This document shows, in pieces, positions 4,774-64,000 of a stretch of DNA of 64,000 nucleotides. Positions within the stretch are counted from its first letter, which is position 1. Each line of letters begins with the position of its first letter. The position numbers were made by a program. The DNA comes from Octopus vulgaris (Eukaryota): assembly GCA_951406725.2 (NCBI GenBank), contig OX597816.1:140678001-140742000 (forward strand), read 5' to 3'.

Positions 4774-7700
4774 GTATGTATGCTTATATGTATTTATATG
4801 TACATATATATGTATATATATGTACATATGTGTGTGTGAGTACATATACACAAACATACATTGTATGAATGAAGTTTTCAATCATGATGTTGTACCTTAT
4901 TCTTCAAATGCTTCAATTCTGGGTATGTAGATATATTTACTCTATTGCTGACAATTATTGAAAGATTTCTCCATTGTGTTGATGTGCCATTTTCTATTAT
5001 TAATAAAACTCAGCATTTTTGCCGACACAGGTATGTTAGTAATAGTAATAATGATAATGATTTTTAATAATACATATATATAAGTAAAATGTTTATTTCT
5101 TATCATTTCCAGGTAAAAAGAAAATTCTCATATGGATGACAATATTAATTATAACCACTTTTGTGTACAGTAGTCAAATGTACCAAACCATTCTAGAAAC
5201 CTTCAAGGATATATTTTCAAGCTGGTGGTTTACAGTCACATATCAACAGTCATATCATTTCTCATATATTCATTTGACAAATAATTGTTCTGACTCCGTT
5301 CAGATCCTTGTTGCTGTGTGTTCAGCCCCAATAAATATACTGCATCGAAATACCATACGAGAGACTTGGGGTCAATATGCTAGGAACAATTCAAACTTTA
5401 AGATGGTTTTTTTTGAAGGTGTTACACATAGTCCTGGTGTTCAAGATGATATTCATGAAGAAAGTGTAAAATATGGTGATATTGTACAAGAGAACTATAT
5501 TGATCATTATGAAAACTTGTCTTTAAAGTCAATTGCTTATCTGCGTTGGGTGAGTTCTTCATGTAGTAAAGTAAAATTTGTGTTGAAAACAGATGATGAT
5601 ATGTATATAAATCTTCCATTGTTAGAGAAAACACTTATGAACATGAAACGTTCTCGGTTTATCATGGGTTTACTTTTTCGACATGTTGTACCAATCAGAC
5701 ATAATTCATCAAAATGGTACACACCCATATCAAAATATCAAAAGAATGAGTTTCCTGATTATATGTCCGGGACAGCTTATCTAATTTCAGGCGACATAGT
5801 ACCAGAATTATATGCAGAATCATTTAATGAAAAGCTTTTCTGGCTTGAAGATGTTTATATAACAGGGATGCTTGCAAACCGAGTGAATACAACAAGAATA
5901 AACAGTAACATGTTTACAATCTATAAACAACAATACACTGGCTGTGCCTACAAAAACATAATAAGTGGACATCATGTGACGCCAAAAAATATGAAAATTA
6001 TTTATCAACAATTAAAAGACGTAAATCTTGTTTGCCATTAATTTTCTCTTTTAAAAATAGTAGTTGAAGCCTGTAGAAATGAACTTAGTGCCCAGCTTTC
6101 TTGAATATCATTGCATTATATTCTGAGTTAACTTCATATTCTGGATGATTTCTTTCTTCCTTCTGAGGATATGGTTGATAAAATAAGCAACAGTAATATA
6201 CTGAGGATCAATTTCCAGAAACTTGCTTTGCAGCCACATTGTTTTAGATTTAATCTAACAGTGGAGTAATTTGGGCAACTATTTTCTCTCTTTTTCTCTG
6301 AATAAGCTGCATTCAAAATGCCACAGTCAAACACTTCTTACATGAGAAATCTGACTGAAAAGTGAGCTGGAAGGAAGCAGGACTGTTTCTCAGAAAATAT
6401 AGAAAAAGATGAATAATATTTCAAAGACTCAAATTAATTAATTTTCAAAATAATGTCCTATCATTACTCACAATCATTCCTTTAATTTTAGAATAATTAT
6501 AAAGAATACAACTGCAAGCAATTTTTTGCATGTGAATGTGAATCCTAAATAGCATGTAACAAAATTAATAATGCTGAAACTGGCAACTCACCTGGTGATT
6601 TTTAGACTTAGGTTTTCTATACTCCAATCCTCCTCCTTCTTTGCCTCCTCATCACTGCTGCCGCCGCCACCGCTACCGCCACCACCACCACCATCATCAT
6701 TTAACATCCGTTTTCCATACTAGTATGAGTAGATGGTTTGACAGGAGCTAGCCAGCTGAAGAGCCACCCAGGCTCCATGTCTGTTTTGGTATGGTTTCTA
6801 CTGCTGGATGTCCTATGTCCAAAACATTTTGGTACACTCATTTGCTATTTAATTGACTATGTATTAATTGGAAAGAGTAATATCACTTTATTTTTAAACA
6901 TTCTGTGAAGATGTTGAAAGGGTTTCATGGGCTACATAGAACCTACATTTCAAGCTGCATGCAGCTCATGGGCCATAGTTTAACCAATCTGGTATAGAAG
7001 TCTGTTTCTGACTCTTAAGCAGCTGTGTAGAGGCTCATTTGTTGGCTCATTCAGGAACTAGTAGTACCTGATGGTTGTGATAACATTTAGATGCATTATA
7101 TATAACACACAAGGAACAAAGTTGAAGCAGAGGGAATAAACAAATCATCCAAATAATTGACTAACCTTCACAACTTCTACCACATCTTCCTATCTCTGAT
7201 ACTGTTACTACAACCTTTACACACAACAACCGTTGTCACTTCTGTCTATTCTATTCTGCATCAACCTACTCTCATTACAACACTACCACATCTTTTCTGT
7301 TTCTGGTACTGTTACTTCAACCTTCACACACTACAACTACACAATCTCTATCAATTTTTCTACCACAACAATGGTACCTGTCCATACTCATTGTAATTGA
7401 ACAGTTATATTGAAAAGAAGTTTTATTTTTAAAAAAATTAAAGTTATTTTATACAAAATTATAGCAGACTTTCTTCATTTTATTTGTGCTTCTTTACAAT
7501 AGTAATGACAAGTTAGTTCAACATTTCTGAACTGTATAATGAAGAACATCTTAAATTACTTTTCAAATTATCCTTTAAATGTGATATTGAACAGCCAAAC
7601 TCAACCAACTCCAAAGAAAACAGATTCATTGTTAAAAAATATGCATTGTTCCAAAAAATCTGAATGAAGAGATAAGGGAAATCTTATTGATAGCGATAAC

Positions 7701-61300: not shown

Positions 61301-64000
61301 TCCCATGCTAGCATGGAAAGCGGACATTAAATGATGATGATGATGATGATGGATAGGAACCATGTAGTGGTAGAAAAATAGACAGAAGCTGTAGTAATTT
61401 TGTAATAAGTGAAGGTTGTAGTAACAGTATCAGTGATAGATGTGGTAGTACTATAATGTGTTATTGGTGAATGAAGGTTGTAGTACCTGTTGAATAGACA
61501 GAATGGGTGTAATAACAGTATCAGAGAGAAAGAAATGTGGTAATGGTTGTGAAGGTTTGTCAATCATTTGGATGTTTTTTTTCTCTCTTAGCTTTTTTTC
61601 TCCTCTCAGCTGTTCAATATTAGTACTTCAATAATAGTATCTGTTTGAACCACTGTATGGTTCCTTATAAGCCAAAGAGTGAACTTCTATACAGTCACTC
61701 AGTTAACTAAAAATAACATTCAAATATCTCTCAGATCAGATTATACCATCTTAAATAAAAGCACTTTAGATAAGGTAGTCCTAAAAAGATGAGATGCTCA
61801 TAGCTGGAATATCTCTGATCATATACCTGTTCAATTGGAGTTGGCCTGGAGTTAAAAACAAGTATTTTGGGGTGGTGTGTATTAGATGTATTCATAGAAA
61901 TGTGCTCCTCATGTCAACTTCACAAATTTCTTTTTAAAATGAGAGCGAAAAAGCTCTGTAGACCTAAATGTCATGCTGGTGAGACCCATATTGGAGTATG
62001 GGATTCAAGCCTCTTCTCTTTATCTCCTCAAAGACATACAGCATCTCGAAAGAGTCCAGAAGCTGGCTACCCGCATGGTTCATGGTCTCAAAAATTTGTC
62101 CTACGAAGAAAGGCTGAGGACGCTCGACCTTTATTCTCTTGAAAAACGCCGCCGCCGTGGTGATCTCATTCTCGCCCACAACATCATAAGCGAAAAGTGT
62201 AACCTCTCGAAAGAGCTGTTCTTCACTCCTGCTCCAGAGCGTCGGCTGCGGGGTCATTCCGAAAAGCTCTACCTGCGACGATTTCATCTCAATCGAAGGA
62301 GAGGAGCTTTCTCCGTCCGGGTTGCGGATCCGTGGAACAAGCTGCCAGACGAGATGGTGAAGATGCCGACGACCGCTTTGTTCAAAGCCTCCTGGACCTC
62401 AAGTGGCCTGAACTCTTTACATGAACACCACCCTGTACTTAACTCCATGTCCCCCTACATGGCCTTGCTATTTGCTTTTGAGCCAAATTAACTAACTAAC
62501 TAACTAAATATTGTTGTGCCTGCATTGAAGGGTTTATCTTTAAATATCTATGAATAACATGTCAAAGAGACCCAATCTTGGCAGAATGCATACTTTTTCA
62601 GTATATACACTACAGGTGGATATTATACAAAATACATGGGTTGAAGTGAATTGAAATGGCTTGATCACAGATTGAACCTTGTATTGCAGATTTTACTCAC
62701 TTGAAGTTTACCATTTATTTATGATGCTTGCAGCACATAGATATGACATAAGAATGAGCCTTCATCATTATCATTTAACATCAGTTGACCATGCTGGCAA
62801 GGACTGAAGTATTAATAAAAATAAATAAAATGAAAATGTAGCAAGTGTCCATTGAGAATTGAATTTTTGACCTGTGATTAATGGTCAAGTACATTGACCA
62901 ATGCTTTTCATTAAATCATTCTGTATACTATTCTGGTACTGTGTCACCTGAAATTAGATAAGAAGTTCTAGAGAATCCTCAGCATATTAATACCACTTGT
63001 TTTAATAACCATCACCTTAGAAGAATAAAAGATGTCAACTATGGCAGGATTTGAACTCAGAATATGGGGTAAGGATATTCAAGAATGCAGGGCACTTAGT
63101 TCATTTCAGCAAGCTTCAACTGCTATTTTTAAAAGAGAAAATTAATGGCAAACAAGATTTACGTCTTTTAATTGTTTATAAATAATTTTCATTTTTCTTG
63201 GCACCACATGATGTCCACTTATTATGTTTTTGTAGGCACAGCCAGTGTGTTGTCGGTTATGGATTGTAAACATGTTACTGTTTATTCTTGTTGCATTCAC
63301 TCGGTTTGCAAGCATCCCTGTTATATAAACATCTTCAAGCCAGAAGCGCTTTCCATTAAATGATTCTGCATATAATTCTGGTACTATGTCACCTGAAATT
63401 AGATAAGCAGTCCCAGACATATAATCAGGAAACTCATTCTTTTGATATTTTGACATGGGTGTGTACCATTTTGATGAACTATCTCTGATTGGTACAACAT
63501 GTTGAAAAAGTAAACCCATGATAAACCGAGAACGTTTCATGGTCATAAGTGTTTTCTCTAACAATGGAAGATTTATATACATATCATCATCTGTTTTCAA
63601 CACAAATTTTACTTTACTACATGAAGAACTCACCCAACGCAGATAAGCAATTGACTTTAAAGACAAGTTTCCATAATGATCAATATAGTTCTCTTGTACA
63701 ATATCACCATATTTTACACTTTCTTCATGAATATCATCTTGAACACCAGGACTATGTGTAACACCTTCAAAAAAAACCATCTTAAAGTTTGAATTGTTCC
63801 TAGCATATTGACCCCAAGTCTCTCGTATGGTATTTCGACGCAGTATATTTATTGGGGCTGAACACACAGCAACAAGGATCTGAACGGAGTCAGAACAATT
63901 ATTTGTCAAATGAATATATGAGAAATGATATGATTGTTGGTTTATGATGAAACCATTTGAAAATGGAAGAAATCGTAACCTCCCTGAAAGTATATTCATG

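What the first reader, a model, noticed from the sequence alone, without database searches (positions are those of the whole stretch)
5244..63939. TANGO6-cactin block bracketed by inverted B3GALT copies that look homogenised by conversion (possible flip-flop inversion)
Seen: about 3.8-kb inverted arms lie about 51 kb apart. By hand alignment the GT31 catalytic regions differ at only about 24 of 798 nt, including just 4-5 silent changes. The duplicated cactin exon in the same arms differs at about 16 of 114 nt. Non-coding parts are more diverged still and carry arm-specific SINE/CR1 insertions. Purifying selection cannot preserve silent sites like this. Inference: an old duplication with recent gene conversion confined to the CDS. 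A crossover in the near-identical tract would invert the whole TANGO6-cactin block. It would also swap catalytic C-terminal halves between two different promoters and N-termini, producing new enzyme combinations.
Basis: partly seen in the sequence, partly recalled or inferred. Interest (0 to 1): 0.8.

Follow-up and report, generated by a model that had tools for sequence, protein, structure and literature searches.

The report
Inverted octopus B3GALT paralogs homogenised by conversion
Two inverted copies of an octopus galactosyltransferase gene, duplicated long ago, have had most of their coding sequence copied from one to the other, which is an ordinary case of gene conversion; nothing shows that the block between them flips.

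Summary
Inverted arms lie at 5226-8913 and 60214-63955, 51.3 kb apart. They carry two GT31 galactosyltransferase genes that differ at 24 of 798 nt (5 silent, 19 replacement). The flanking non-coding DNA differs at 18-25%. The arms also carry the last cactin exon: intact on the right, decayed on the left. This makes them a true segmental duplication with the right arm parental.

Both paralog types, each with its own N-terminus, occur in O. sinensis and O. bimaculoides. The duplication therefore predates their split, put at about 34 My in the literature.

Silent-site identity (5 of about 162 sites against 228 of 1227 in the flanks, p=2e-8) and a step-like tract (L 5244-6093) support interlocus gene conversion. 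The tract is not confined to the CDS, and most of it predates the vulgaris/sinensis split. It is a mosaic: 6 amino-acid sites group by species and 4 by paralog. A silent-divergent island sits at codons 175-198, next to catalytic motif V.

The flip-flop inversion has no support:
- 0 of 10 informative sites show the reciprocal swap it predicts.
- N-terminus type stays linked to its C-terminal residues in three species.
- The longest perfect match is 167 bp.

This is a new member of a known kind, of modest interest.

The parts
5226..8913 (.). Left arm of the inverted segmental duplication (the derived copy)
   Evidence: Colinear inverted blastn chain to 63955-60214. Identity profile. No other copies in the window.
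60214..63955 (.). Right arm (the parental copy). Its outer end is cut by the window end, so it may be longer.
   Evidence: It holds the intact terminal cactin exon.
5136..6041 (+). B3GALT-L: a GT31 beta-1,3-galactosyltransferase-like gene, 301 codons in one exon
   Evidence: Pfam Galactosyl_T PF01762, 1.6e-46. 97% identical to the O. sinensis protein P0001, which has the same start. DDD and EDV motifs are present.
63142..63999 (-). B3GALT-R: the paralogous gene. Its first ~23 codons lie beyond the window end.
   Evidence: Pfam PF01762, 8.7e-46. 2 of 265 residues differ from the O. sinensis R-type protein P0002, whose N-terminus begins 23 residues before the window's first R codon.
5244..6093 (+). 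Homogenised (converted) tract, left copy: codons 37-301 plus 52 nt of 3' flank
   Evidence: 29 mismatches in 850 columns, against 17.6-24.5% in the flanks. The best change-point segment is 5253-6057.
63090..63939 (-). Homogenised tract, right copy
   Evidence: Same alignment.
5766..5837 (+). Island inside the tract (codons 175-198). It holds 4 of the 5 silent differences and the paralog-specific E196/L198 against G196/R198, just upstream of GT31 motif V.
   Evidence: Permutation p=0.013 for the clustering. Sites 196 and 198 are paralog-specific in three species. Motif V is described in a passage of PMC8022947.
7684..7800 (-). Decayed copy of the terminal cactin exon (pseudo-exon)
   Evidence: In-frame TAG and deletions of 6 nt and 3 nt relative to the right-arm exon. 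15 of 111 ungapped columns differ.
60994..61119 (+). Intact terminal coding exon of cactin
   Evidence: Pfam CactinC_cactus, profile positions 84-125 of 125, 5.9e-16. The acceptor TTTTGCAG lies just upstream.
33349..53971 (+). Further cactin exons, searched one by one and not joined. Pfam pieces lie within ORFs 33349-33510, 34719-34898, 38025-38294, 40740-40958 and 53732-53971.
   Evidence: Cactin_mid profile positions 17-38, 33-71, 69-119 and 125-172, and CactinC positions 18-49, in colinear order.
14235..17846 (-). TANGO6, one 1203-codon open frame, head to head with cactin
   Evidence: Pfam TANGO6_N, ARM_TANGO6 and RTP1_C1.
61583..62974 (.). Right-arm-specific insertion with a LINE-like ORF at 61943-62488(+)
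   Evidence: No counterpart in the left arm. The ORF is listed. The element family was not confirmed.
8291..8612 (.). Left-arm-specific insertion
   Evidence: It forms a gap in the arm alignment and has no other copy in the window.
62900..62972 (-). Decayed relic of B3GALT codons ~178-198, at the point where the core homology ends
   Evidence: tblastn to residues 211-233, 74%. 87-89% nt identity to both copies. Two in-frame stops.

Best explanation
An inverted segmental duplication copied a single-exon GT31 galactosyltransferase gene together with the adjoining 3' end of cactin: part of its last intron, its last exon and the intergenic DNA. This happened before O. bimaculoides split from the vulgaris/sinensis lineage. 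The copy landed about 57 kb away in the opposite orientation, on the far side of TANGO6 and cactin.

The non-coding DNA and the useless cactin exon copy then decayed to about 75-82% identity. In the vulgaris/sinensis lineage, non-allelic (interlocus) gene conversion between the two genes overwrote about 850 bp, from codon 37 to 52 nt past the stop. This reset silent divergence to about 3%. The events were patchy: some paralog-specific residues survived, and a short island at codons 175-198 kept flank-like silent divergence.

Shown: the anatomy, the polarity of the duplication, its age relative to speciation, and the step in silent divergence.

Inferred: that conversion is the mechanism, that its direction was probably R to L, its timing, and any role of selection in keeping the island.
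For: (1) Silent sites: 5 differences in 161.8 silent sites (dS 0.032), against 228 of 1227 in non-coding flank columns, Fisher p=1.9e-8. At four-fold sites the count is 3 of 90, p=4e-5.

(2) Step-like boundaries: the best low-divergence segment is 5253-6057, LRT 130.5 against a maximum of 21.1 in 200 permutations.

(3) dN/dS is 0.97, so nucleotide-level constraint is not what keeps the copies alike.

(4) The arms are a true duplication and not a repeat family. They hold a cactin exon, intact on the right and dead on the left, and have no other copies in the window.

(5) Both N-terminus types occur in O. sinensis (P0001, P0002, reported with the same longest contig, 174.4 Mb) and in O. bimaculoides (P0003, P0004). 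In the N-terminal stub, 7 sites group by paralog and 0 by species.

(6) In the 265 homologous codons, 6 sites have both paralogs of one species sharing a state that differs from both paralogs of the other species (108, 149, 166, 172, 174, 223). Each needs either two parallel substitutions or a conversion after speciation.

(7) Within the window, L and R differ at 18 of 265 residues. That is fewer than either orthologue pair against O. bimaculoides (29 and 21), although the duplication is older.

(8) An independent assembly of another species encodes the same near-identical pair.

(9) Possible gene conversion among clustered octopod genes (reflectins, tyrosinases) is already reported in passages of PMC9635652.
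Against: - Protein trees are not decisive. With the whole protein the R copies form a clade (82/93), and holding the within-lineage clade together costs 14 lnL units (p-AU 0.15).
- With only the homologous 265 codons the within-lineage clade appears, but at 71/64, and the orthology clades are not rejected (p-AU 0.31 and 0.33).
- Four sites (34, 196, 198, 227) group strictly by paralog, and two more nearly so (90, 246). Homogenisation was therefore incomplete.
- No DNA of other octopus species could be reached, so silent-site trees across species were not made.
- The tract shows no GC enrichment: 0.33 against 0.35-0.365 in the flanks. There is thus no sign of GC-biased conversion.
- The 99% to 94% identity gradient inside the CDS is mostly replacement changes. 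It mirrors the stronger conservation of the first 132 codons in all pairs, so it is not evidence for two layers of conversion.
Confidence: 0.8

Rival explanations
1. Active flip-flop. Crossovers in the near-identical tract repeatedly invert the ~57-kb TANGO6-cactin block and swap C-terminal enzyme parts between the two N-termini and promoters. It could coexist with conversion.
For: The geometry is right. The repeats are inverted and the genes' 3' ends face inward, so a crossover in the CDS would join the L N-terminus to the R C-terminus while leaving TANGO6 and cactin whole. Conversion itself shows that the two copies have paired. In humans, inversions mediated by inverted repeats that contain paralogous genes are common and recurrent (PMC3961182: abstract, Table 1 and passages).
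Against: - 0 of 10 informative sites in the homologous region show the reciprocal pattern (L of one species = R of the other). The count is 0 of 17 when the N-terminal stub is included.
- The L-type N-terminus is linked with E196, L198 and T246 in all three species.
- The longest uninterrupted identity is 167 bp, then 128 and 94 bp. Passages in PMC2583991 and PMC3966225 give minimal efficient segments of over 200 bp in mouse cells and about 300-500 bp in human meiosis, and a 20-fold drop in recombination when the longest perfect homology falls from 232 to 134 bp. There are no cephalopod figures.
- The human repeats in Table 1 of PMC3961182 measure 1.6-32 kb. Here only 0.85 kb is highly similar.
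- Only one haplotype of one assembly was seen.
Confidence: 0.08
2. No conversion. The CDS stays alike because its nucleotides are constrained. One candidate cause is RNA structure needed for A-to-I editing, which in cephalopods raises conservation around edited sites.
For: Cephalopods show increased conservation around conserved editing sites (passage in the review PMC5705066).
Against: - dN/dS is 0.97, with 19 replacement changes in 798 nt. The sequence is therefore free to change, yet silent sites are about 6 times less diverged than the flanks.
- The boundaries are step-like, and one of them lies in the middle of the CDS.
- Six sites are shared by both paralogs within a species but differ between species. 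Constraint does not predict this.
Confidence: 0.03
3. Assembly or polishing artefact. Reads from one copy were used to correct the other, making the CDSs look alike.
For: Near-identical inverted copies are a known hazard for polishing. I could inspect no reads.
Against: - The copies still differ at 24 sites.
- 12 of the 18 amino-acid differences, and the same overall similarity, recur in the O. sinensis proteins P0001 and P0002, which come from another species' assembly.
- The O. vulgaris protein model P0008 matches the left copy exactly over 138 residues.
Confidence: 0.04
4. The same homogenisation, but templated by RNA or cDNA. A transcript of one single-exon gene served as the donor, so this was not DNA-DNA pairing of the two inverted copies.
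For: The tract (5244-6093) lies wholly inside what is probably one exon, covering the CDS plus the start of the 3' UTR. B3GALT-type genes typically carry their CDS in a single exon (passage in PMC8022947).
Against: Nothing distinguishes this from DNA-templated conversion. The tract does not reach the start of the CDS. The mosaic with an internal island suggests several short events.
Confidence: 0.07

Closest known systems
Interlocus gene conversion with selection-maintained differences: human red/green opsins (review PMC3924837) and the Leptodactylus ATP1A1 paralogs (bioRxiv 10.1101/2020.08.04.234435)
   Same: Old duplicates a few tens of kb apart are kept nearly identical over most of their length, while a few paralog-specific amino acids persist across species. 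In the opsin case these form a local peak of divergence (passages of PMC3924837; abstract of the ATP1A1 preprint).
   Different: Here the copies are inverted and flank two unrelated genes. The island rests on 4 silent and 2 replacement sites (p=0.013, and the window was chosen after seeing the data). No functional difference between the enzymes is known.
Human inversions mediated by inverted repeats that hold paralogous genes: HsInv0389 (FLNA-EMD), HsInv0241 (AQP12A/B), HsInv0209 (KRTAP5-10/11) in PMC3961182
   Same: Inverted segmental duplications with paralogous genes bracket a block of tens of kb. The FLNA-EMD inversion is 46.8 kb and holds two genes. For HsInv0209 the most likely breakpoint location is a 782-bp stretch of 99.9% identity inside repeats that average 94% (Table 1 and passages).
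   Different: In those cases both orientations were observed. Here only one is seen. The high-identity stretch is 96.6% identical, with a longest perfect run of 167 bp, and the test for reciprocal swaps was negative.
Possible gene conversion in octopod tandem clusters (reflectin and tyrosinase in Argonauta argo, PMC9635652)
   Same: The same animal group and the same process, inferred from shared sequence in the centre of paralogous genes (passages).
   Different: Those are tandem clusters. This is an inverted pair separated by two other genes, and a dead cactin exon dates and polarises it.
FUT2/Sec1 glycosyltransferase paralogs (PMC3966225)
   Same: Glycosyltransferase paralogs show both a conversion allele and a crossover-derived fusion of the 5' part of one gene to the 3' part of the other (passages).
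   Different: A different enzyme family and different species. No fusion or chimera is seen here.

Membership tests
GT31 / Pfam Galactosyl_T (PF01762) beta-1,3-glycosyltransferases | Profile match above the curated cut-off | tested here: met
   159 bits (L) and 156.6 bits (R) against a cut-off of 23, covering profile positions 2-193 of 195.
GT31 / Pfam Galactosyl_T (PF01762) beta-1,3-glycosyltransferases | DxD motif (motif II) and the C-terminal motif V, (E/D)DVxxGx(W/C) | tested here: met
   DDD and EDV are present in both copies. Motif V reads EDVYITGML, which has one more residue between V and G than the consensus quoted in PMC8022947 (passage). The outgroup proteins have the same spacing.
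GT31 / Pfam Galactosyl_T (PF01762) beta-1,3-glycosyltransferases | Galactosyltransferase activity and acceptor specificity | not testable with these tools
   Needs an enzyme assay. The name 'B3GALT1-like' is the source databases' label.
Interlocus gene conversion / concerted evolution | The duplication is older than the species split | tested here: met
   L-type and R-type N-termini occur in O. sinensis and O. bimaculoides. In the stub, 7 sites group by paralog and 0 by species.
Interlocus gene conversion / concerted evolution | A tract whose neutral (silent) divergence is far below that of the rest of the duplicated segment | tested here: met
   5 of ~162 silent sites against 228 of 1227 flank columns, p=1.9e-8. 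Change-point LRT 130.5 against a permutation maximum of 21.1.
Interlocus gene conversion / concerted evolution | Paralogs group within a species or lineage inside the tract | tested here: inconclusive
   Site counts are 6 concerted against 4 orthologous. The tree of the 265 homologous codons gives the within-lineage clade at 71/64, and orthology is not rejected at p-AU 0.31-0.33. With the whole protein the tree leans towards orthology.
Interlocus gene conversion / concerted evolution | Silent-site trees or GENECONV-type tests on DNA of several species | not testable with these tools
Recurrent inversion mediated by inverted repeats (NAHR, FLNA-EMD type) | Inverted repeats bracket the segment | tested here: met
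Recurrent inversion mediated by inverted repeats (NAHR, FLNA-EMD type) | Both orientations seen within or between species | not testable with these tools
   Only one haplotype was available. There were no reads and no other assemblies.
Recurrent inversion mediated by inverted repeats (NAHR, FLNA-EMD type) | Reciprocal exchange of the parts distal and proximal to the crossover (chimeric copies) | tested here: not met
   0 'odd' sites among 10 informative sites in the homologous region. N-terminus type stays linked with residues 196, 198 and 246 in three species. Only fixed differences are tested this way.
Recurrent inversion mediated by inverted repeats (NAHR, FLNA-EMD type) | Uninterrupted identity at or above the minimal efficient processing segment | tested here: not met
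   The longest runs are 167, 128 and 94 bp, against mammalian figures of over 200 bp and 300-500 bp (PMC3966225 and PMC2583991, passages). The threshold in cephalopods is unknown.
Cactin (Pfam Cactin_mid + CactinC_cactus) | Both domains present, in order, on one strand | tested here: met
   Six exon-sized pieces lie in colinear profile order on the + strand from 33.3 to 61.1 kb. CactinC profile positions 49-84 were not found among ORFs of 35 aa or more. The exons were not joined.
TANGO6 (Pfam TANGO6_N, ARM_TANGO6, RTP1_C1) | The three domains present in order | tested here: met
   E-values of 7e-44, 3.5e-46 and 1.5e-29 in one 1203-aa frame.

The most novel reading that the evidence does not exclude
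The pair is held in a balance. Conversion keeps erasing differences, while selection protects a small island (codons 175-198, with E-K-L against G-K-R just upstream of catalytic motif V) and the divergent N-terminal stem. That would make the two enzymes functionally distinct, for example in acceptor specificity or Golgi placement. The same pairing that drives conversion might also occasionally resolve as a crossover, so that some octopus populations carry the ~57-kb TANGO6-cactin block in both orientations, with chimeric enzymes.
Probability: 0.15. Interest if true: 0.45.

Novelty: new member of a known kind. Interest (0 to 1): 0.27.

Why it matters
This is a clean example of non-allelic gene conversion in a cephalopod, and it dates itself. 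The dead cactin exon gives the duplication a direction and a neutral yardstick, and three species bracket its age. It is also a practical warning for octopus annotation and phylogenetics. The two B3GALT1-like genes will give misleading gene trees and divergence times. At least one public model of the left gene (P0008) is spliced from the middle of the catalytic domain to an exon at 11562-11690. If the island next to motif V is truly protected by selection, it points to residues that could set substrate choice in GT31 enzymes. None of this changes what is known about how genomes evolve.

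Tried and rejected
- Protein trees with AU tests (9 rows: 6 octopus and 3 outgroup proteins). I ran the whole protein, the 265 homologous codons, and each half. None rejects either topology, and the halves have too few variable sites.
- A 'two layers of conversion' reading of the identity gradient (99% in the 5' part, 94% in the 3' part). 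I rejected it. At silent sites the contrast is 1 against 4 differences, and the replacement contrast mirrors the higher conservation of the first 132 codons in every pair.
- GC-biased conversion. The tract is not GC-enriched. The skew of 15 sites where L is weak and R strong against 6 of the reverse could not be polarised without outgroup DNA.
- Naming the arm-specific elements. Pfam gave nothing. The Atlas gave only 0.82, with a minority family. There were no tRNA-like heads and no Rfam hits. 'CR1-like' remains my recollection of the C-terminal peptide motif.
- A search for more TANGO6 exons between 8.9 and 14.2 kb. I scanned 35 minus-strand ORFs and found nothing credible.
- The relic at 62900-62972 as a third sequence to polarise changes. 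It is too short and is itself a mosaic.
- Literature. The search 'octopus + gene conversion + inverted' found 17 papers, of which 10 were listed, none on this locus. The search 'octopus + galactosyltransferase + duplication' found 6 papers, none on this pair. I therefore found no prior description in the held library.
- Not used: structure prediction and complex prediction, because no claim here rests on a fold or on binding.

Full report
**What is there**

The window (64 kb, no N, 36% G+C) holds an inverted pair of arms. A colinear blastn chain joins L 5226-6208, 7138-7501, 7596-8290 and 8613-8913 to R 63955-62975, 61582-61218, 61205-60488 and 60496-60214. The arms are 3.7 kb long and their inner ends lie 51.3 kb apart. 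The right arm ends 45 nt from the window end, so the true outer limit is unknown and 3.8 kb is a lower bound.

Each arm carries a GT31 galactosyltransferase gene (Pfam PF01762, 1.6e-46 and 8.7e-46):
- B3GALT-L at 5136-6041 (+).
- B3GALT-R at 63142-63999 (-), running off the window.

Between the arms lie two genes, head to head:
- TANGO6, as one 1203-codon frame at 14235-17846 (-).
- Cactin on the + strand. I found its exons one by one with Pfam, in colinear profile order from 33.3 to 61.1 kb.

**The arms are a real segmental duplication, and it has a direction**

The right arm contains the intact terminal cactin exon (60994-61119, CactinC profile positions 84-125 of 125, preceded by TTTTGCAG). 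The left arm holds a dead copy on the other strand (7684-7800), with an in-frame TAG and deletions of 6 nt and 3 nt.

So the right arm is parental and the left arm is the derived copy. The duplicated unit ran from inside an intron of cactin, through its last exon and the intergenic DNA, into the galactosyltransferase gene. The flank segments have no other copies in the window, so they are not a repeat family.

Arm-specific insertions exist: R 61583-62974 with a 182-aa LINE-like frame, and L 6209-7137 and 8291-8612. I could not confirm the names SINE or CR1 with any tool.

- L 5244-6041 and R 63939-63142 differ at exactly 24 of 798 nt, with no indel.
- 5 changes are silent and 19 are replacement, giving 18 amino-acid differences. 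dS is 0.032, dN is 0.031 and the ratio is 0.97.
- The dead cactin exon differs at 15 of 111 ungapped columns plus 9 nt of indels.
- The non-coding DNA differs at 27 of 110 columns (6094-6208) and 216 of 1228 columns (7138-8913).

**Is the low silent divergence real and local?**

Yes.
- Silent sites (5 of about 162) compared with non-coding flank columns (228 of 1227, cactin exon copy excluded) give Fisher p=1.9e-8. Four-fold sites (3 of 90) give p=4e-5.
- A two-breakpoint scan picks L 5253-6057 (23 mismatches in 805 columns), with LRT 130.5 against a maximum of 21.1 in 200 permutations.
- The tract starts at about codon 37. The 36 N-terminal codons are excluded. The few R bases visible upstream align to L only weakly, with indels.
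- The tract runs 52 nt past the stop (5 mismatches in 52). Beyond that, mismatches rise to 24.5% and indels appear.
- The tract is therefore not confined to the CDS.
- Because dN/dS is about 1, constraint on the nucleotides cannot be what keeps the copies alike. This includes the cephalopod-specific idea of conservation around RNA-editing sites (review PMC5705066, passage).

**Other species**

A protein search with the left copy found 106 proteins at E of 1e-20 or better among 247 candidates. The octopus hits were:
- P0001, O. sinensis, 301 aa, 97% identity, L-type.
- P0002, O. sinensis, 308 aa, R-type.
- P0003, O. bimaculoides, L-type.
- P0004, O. bimaculoides, R-type.
- P0008, an O. vulgaris model of 181 aa.

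The next hits were only 56-58% identical.

The two N-terminus types are shared across species. In the stub, 7 variable sites group by paralog and none by species. P0002 also shows that the R gene has its own membrane-anchor-like start, 23 codons beyond the window's end.

The duplication is therefore older than the split of O. bimaculoides from the vulgaris/sinensis clade. PMC10700109 (passage) quotes that split at about 34 My, and the vulgaris/sinensis split at 2.5 My.

The window itself encodes P0008 exactly: 138 residues from the left copy, then 43 of 43 residues at 11562-11690. It is therefore O. vulgaris or something indistinguishable from it.

**The mosaic**

I compared the window species with O. 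bimaculoides over the 265 homologous codons:
- 4 sites group strictly by paralog (34, 196, 198, 227), and two more nearly so (90, 246).
- 6 sites group by species (108, 149, 166, 172, 174, 223).
- None shows the third pattern.

With O. sinensis in place of the window, the counts are 2, 6 and 0.

Each 'species' site needs either two parallel substitutions or one substitution plus a conversion after speciation. This is protein-level support for conversion that does not depend on the window's DNA.

In the window, L and R differ at 18 of 265 residues. That is fewer than L against L (29) or R against R (21) between the window and O. bimaculoides, although the duplication is the older event. In O. 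bimaculoides the two copies differ at 28.

In the first 132 codons the window's L is nearer to the O. bimaculoides R (4 differences) than to the O. bimaculoides L (9). This hints at R-to-L transfer in the vulgaris/sinensis stem. Faster change in the O. bimaculoides L copy alone would look the same.

**Timing**

12 of the 18 L/R amino-acid differences are the same in O. sinensis, and 2 more (34, 227) match O. bimaculoides. In the tree of the homologous region, L(window, sinensis) and R(window, sinensis) stay apart, at 82/88 and 99/97. Most of the homogenisation therefore predates the 2.5-My split.

As an inference under a clock: dS of 0.032 against flank distances of 0.20-0.30 puts the last homogenisation at 11-16% of the duplication's age. 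That is at least about 4-5 My ago if the duplication is at least 34 My old.

**Trees**

- The whole protein, stub included, leans towards orthology: the R clade has support 82/93, and the within-lineage clade costs 14 lnL units (p-AU 0.15).
- The homologous 265 codons give the within-lineage clade at 71/64, and neither orthology clade is rejected (p-AU 0.31 and 0.33).
- Each half alone has too few variable sites.

**An island**

Four of the five silent differences fall in codons 175-198, which hold 17.7 of the 161.8 silent sites. The permutation p is 0.013, and I noticed the window after seeing the data. This stretch begins right after the run of 'species' sites (149-174).

The island holds the paralog-specific E-K-L against G-K-R. 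These residues lie two to four positions upstream of the EDV of GT31 motif V. [quoted passage not shown]

The pattern resembles the 'peak of divergence' described for opsins under conversion (PMC3924837, passages) and the protected substitutions in frog ATP1A1 (preprint abstract). It could equally be the gap between two independent short tracts.

**The inversion idea**

[quoted passage not shown] A crossover in the tract would invert everything between the genes, leave TANGO6 and cactin intact, and join each N-terminus to the other copy's C-terminal part.

The evidence I could gather does not favour it:
- No site shows the reciprocal pattern such a swap would leave between species: 0 of 10 informative sites in the homologous region, and 0 of 17 with the stub.
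- The L-type N-terminus is linked to E196, L198 and T246 in all three species.
- The longest perfect matches are 167, 128 and 94 bp. This is below the mammalian minimal processing segments quoted in PMC3966225 and PMC2583991 (passages). No cephalopod value exists.
- Human inversions of this type use repeats of 1.6-32 kb (PMC3961182, Table 1).

A rare polymorphic inversion cannot be excluded from one haplotype.

**What stayed unchecked**

- No octopus DNA other than the window was reachable.
- For that reason I could not do silent-site trees across species, GENECONV, or a comparison of block orientation between assemblies.
- No reads were available, so cross-polishing of the two CDSs is argued against only indirectly, by the O. 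sinensis proteins.
- Supplementary files of papers were closed.
- Two literature searches found no description of this locus: 17 papers, 10 listed; 6 papers.

**Verdict**

The best explanation is an old inverted segmental duplication followed by patchy interlocus gene conversion of about 850 bp. This is a well-known process that has already been suggested for octopod gene clusters (PMC9635652, passages). The flip-flop inversion and the 'new enzyme combinations' are speculation without support here.

Noticed in passing
window 5549-5550 and 11562-11690 (+): The public O. vulgaris protein model P0008 follows the left galactosyltransferase for 138 residues. It then leaves at a TGG|GTGAGT site inside the catalytic domain and continues in an exon at 11562-11690 (43 of 43 residues identical). 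The model lacks the DxD motif. It is either a mis-annotation or a real truncating splice form.
   Followed up: partly
window 62900-62972 (-): A ~70-bp decayed relic of B3GALT codons ~178-198, with two in-frame stops, sits exactly where the high-identity core of the arms ends (L 6208 / R 62975). It is present only in the right arm. It covers the same codons as the silent-divergent island, and its origin is unexplained.
   Followed up: partly
window 14235-17846 (-): TANGO6 is encoded as one uninterrupted 1203-codon frame covering TANGO6_N, ARM_TANGO6 and RTP1_C1. No further Pfam-detectable exon was found in 8.9-14.2 kb. This would be an almost intronless TANGO6, arranged head to head with cactin.
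   Followed up: partly
window 5136-5243 (+), compared with the N-termini of P0001 and P0002: The N-terminal stub (the probable membrane anchor and stem) of the two paralogs is only 18 of 35 aligned residues identical, with an 8-residue indel. The rest of the protein is 93% identical. The stub lies just outside the converted tract.
   Followed up: partly
window 1691-1990, 27450-27650, 52800-52860: Long dinucleotide microsatellites produce most of the 'inverted repeat' and blast hits in the window. They are unrelated to the arms.
   Followed up: no
window 4074-4242, 10719-10919, 55408-57576: A ~160-bp interspersed repeat occurs in several copies at 73-85% identity in both orientations, including a cluster inside a cactin intron (55.4-57.6 kb). 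It is probably a SINE-like element. I did not classify it.
   Followed up: no
window 5244-6041 compared with 63939-63142: At the 24 differing CDS sites, the left copy has A/T where the right has G/C 15 times, and the reverse 6 times. The left protein has also changed more than the right since the split from O. sinensis (7 against 2 residues). This suggests weaker constraint on the derived copy.
   Followed up: partly
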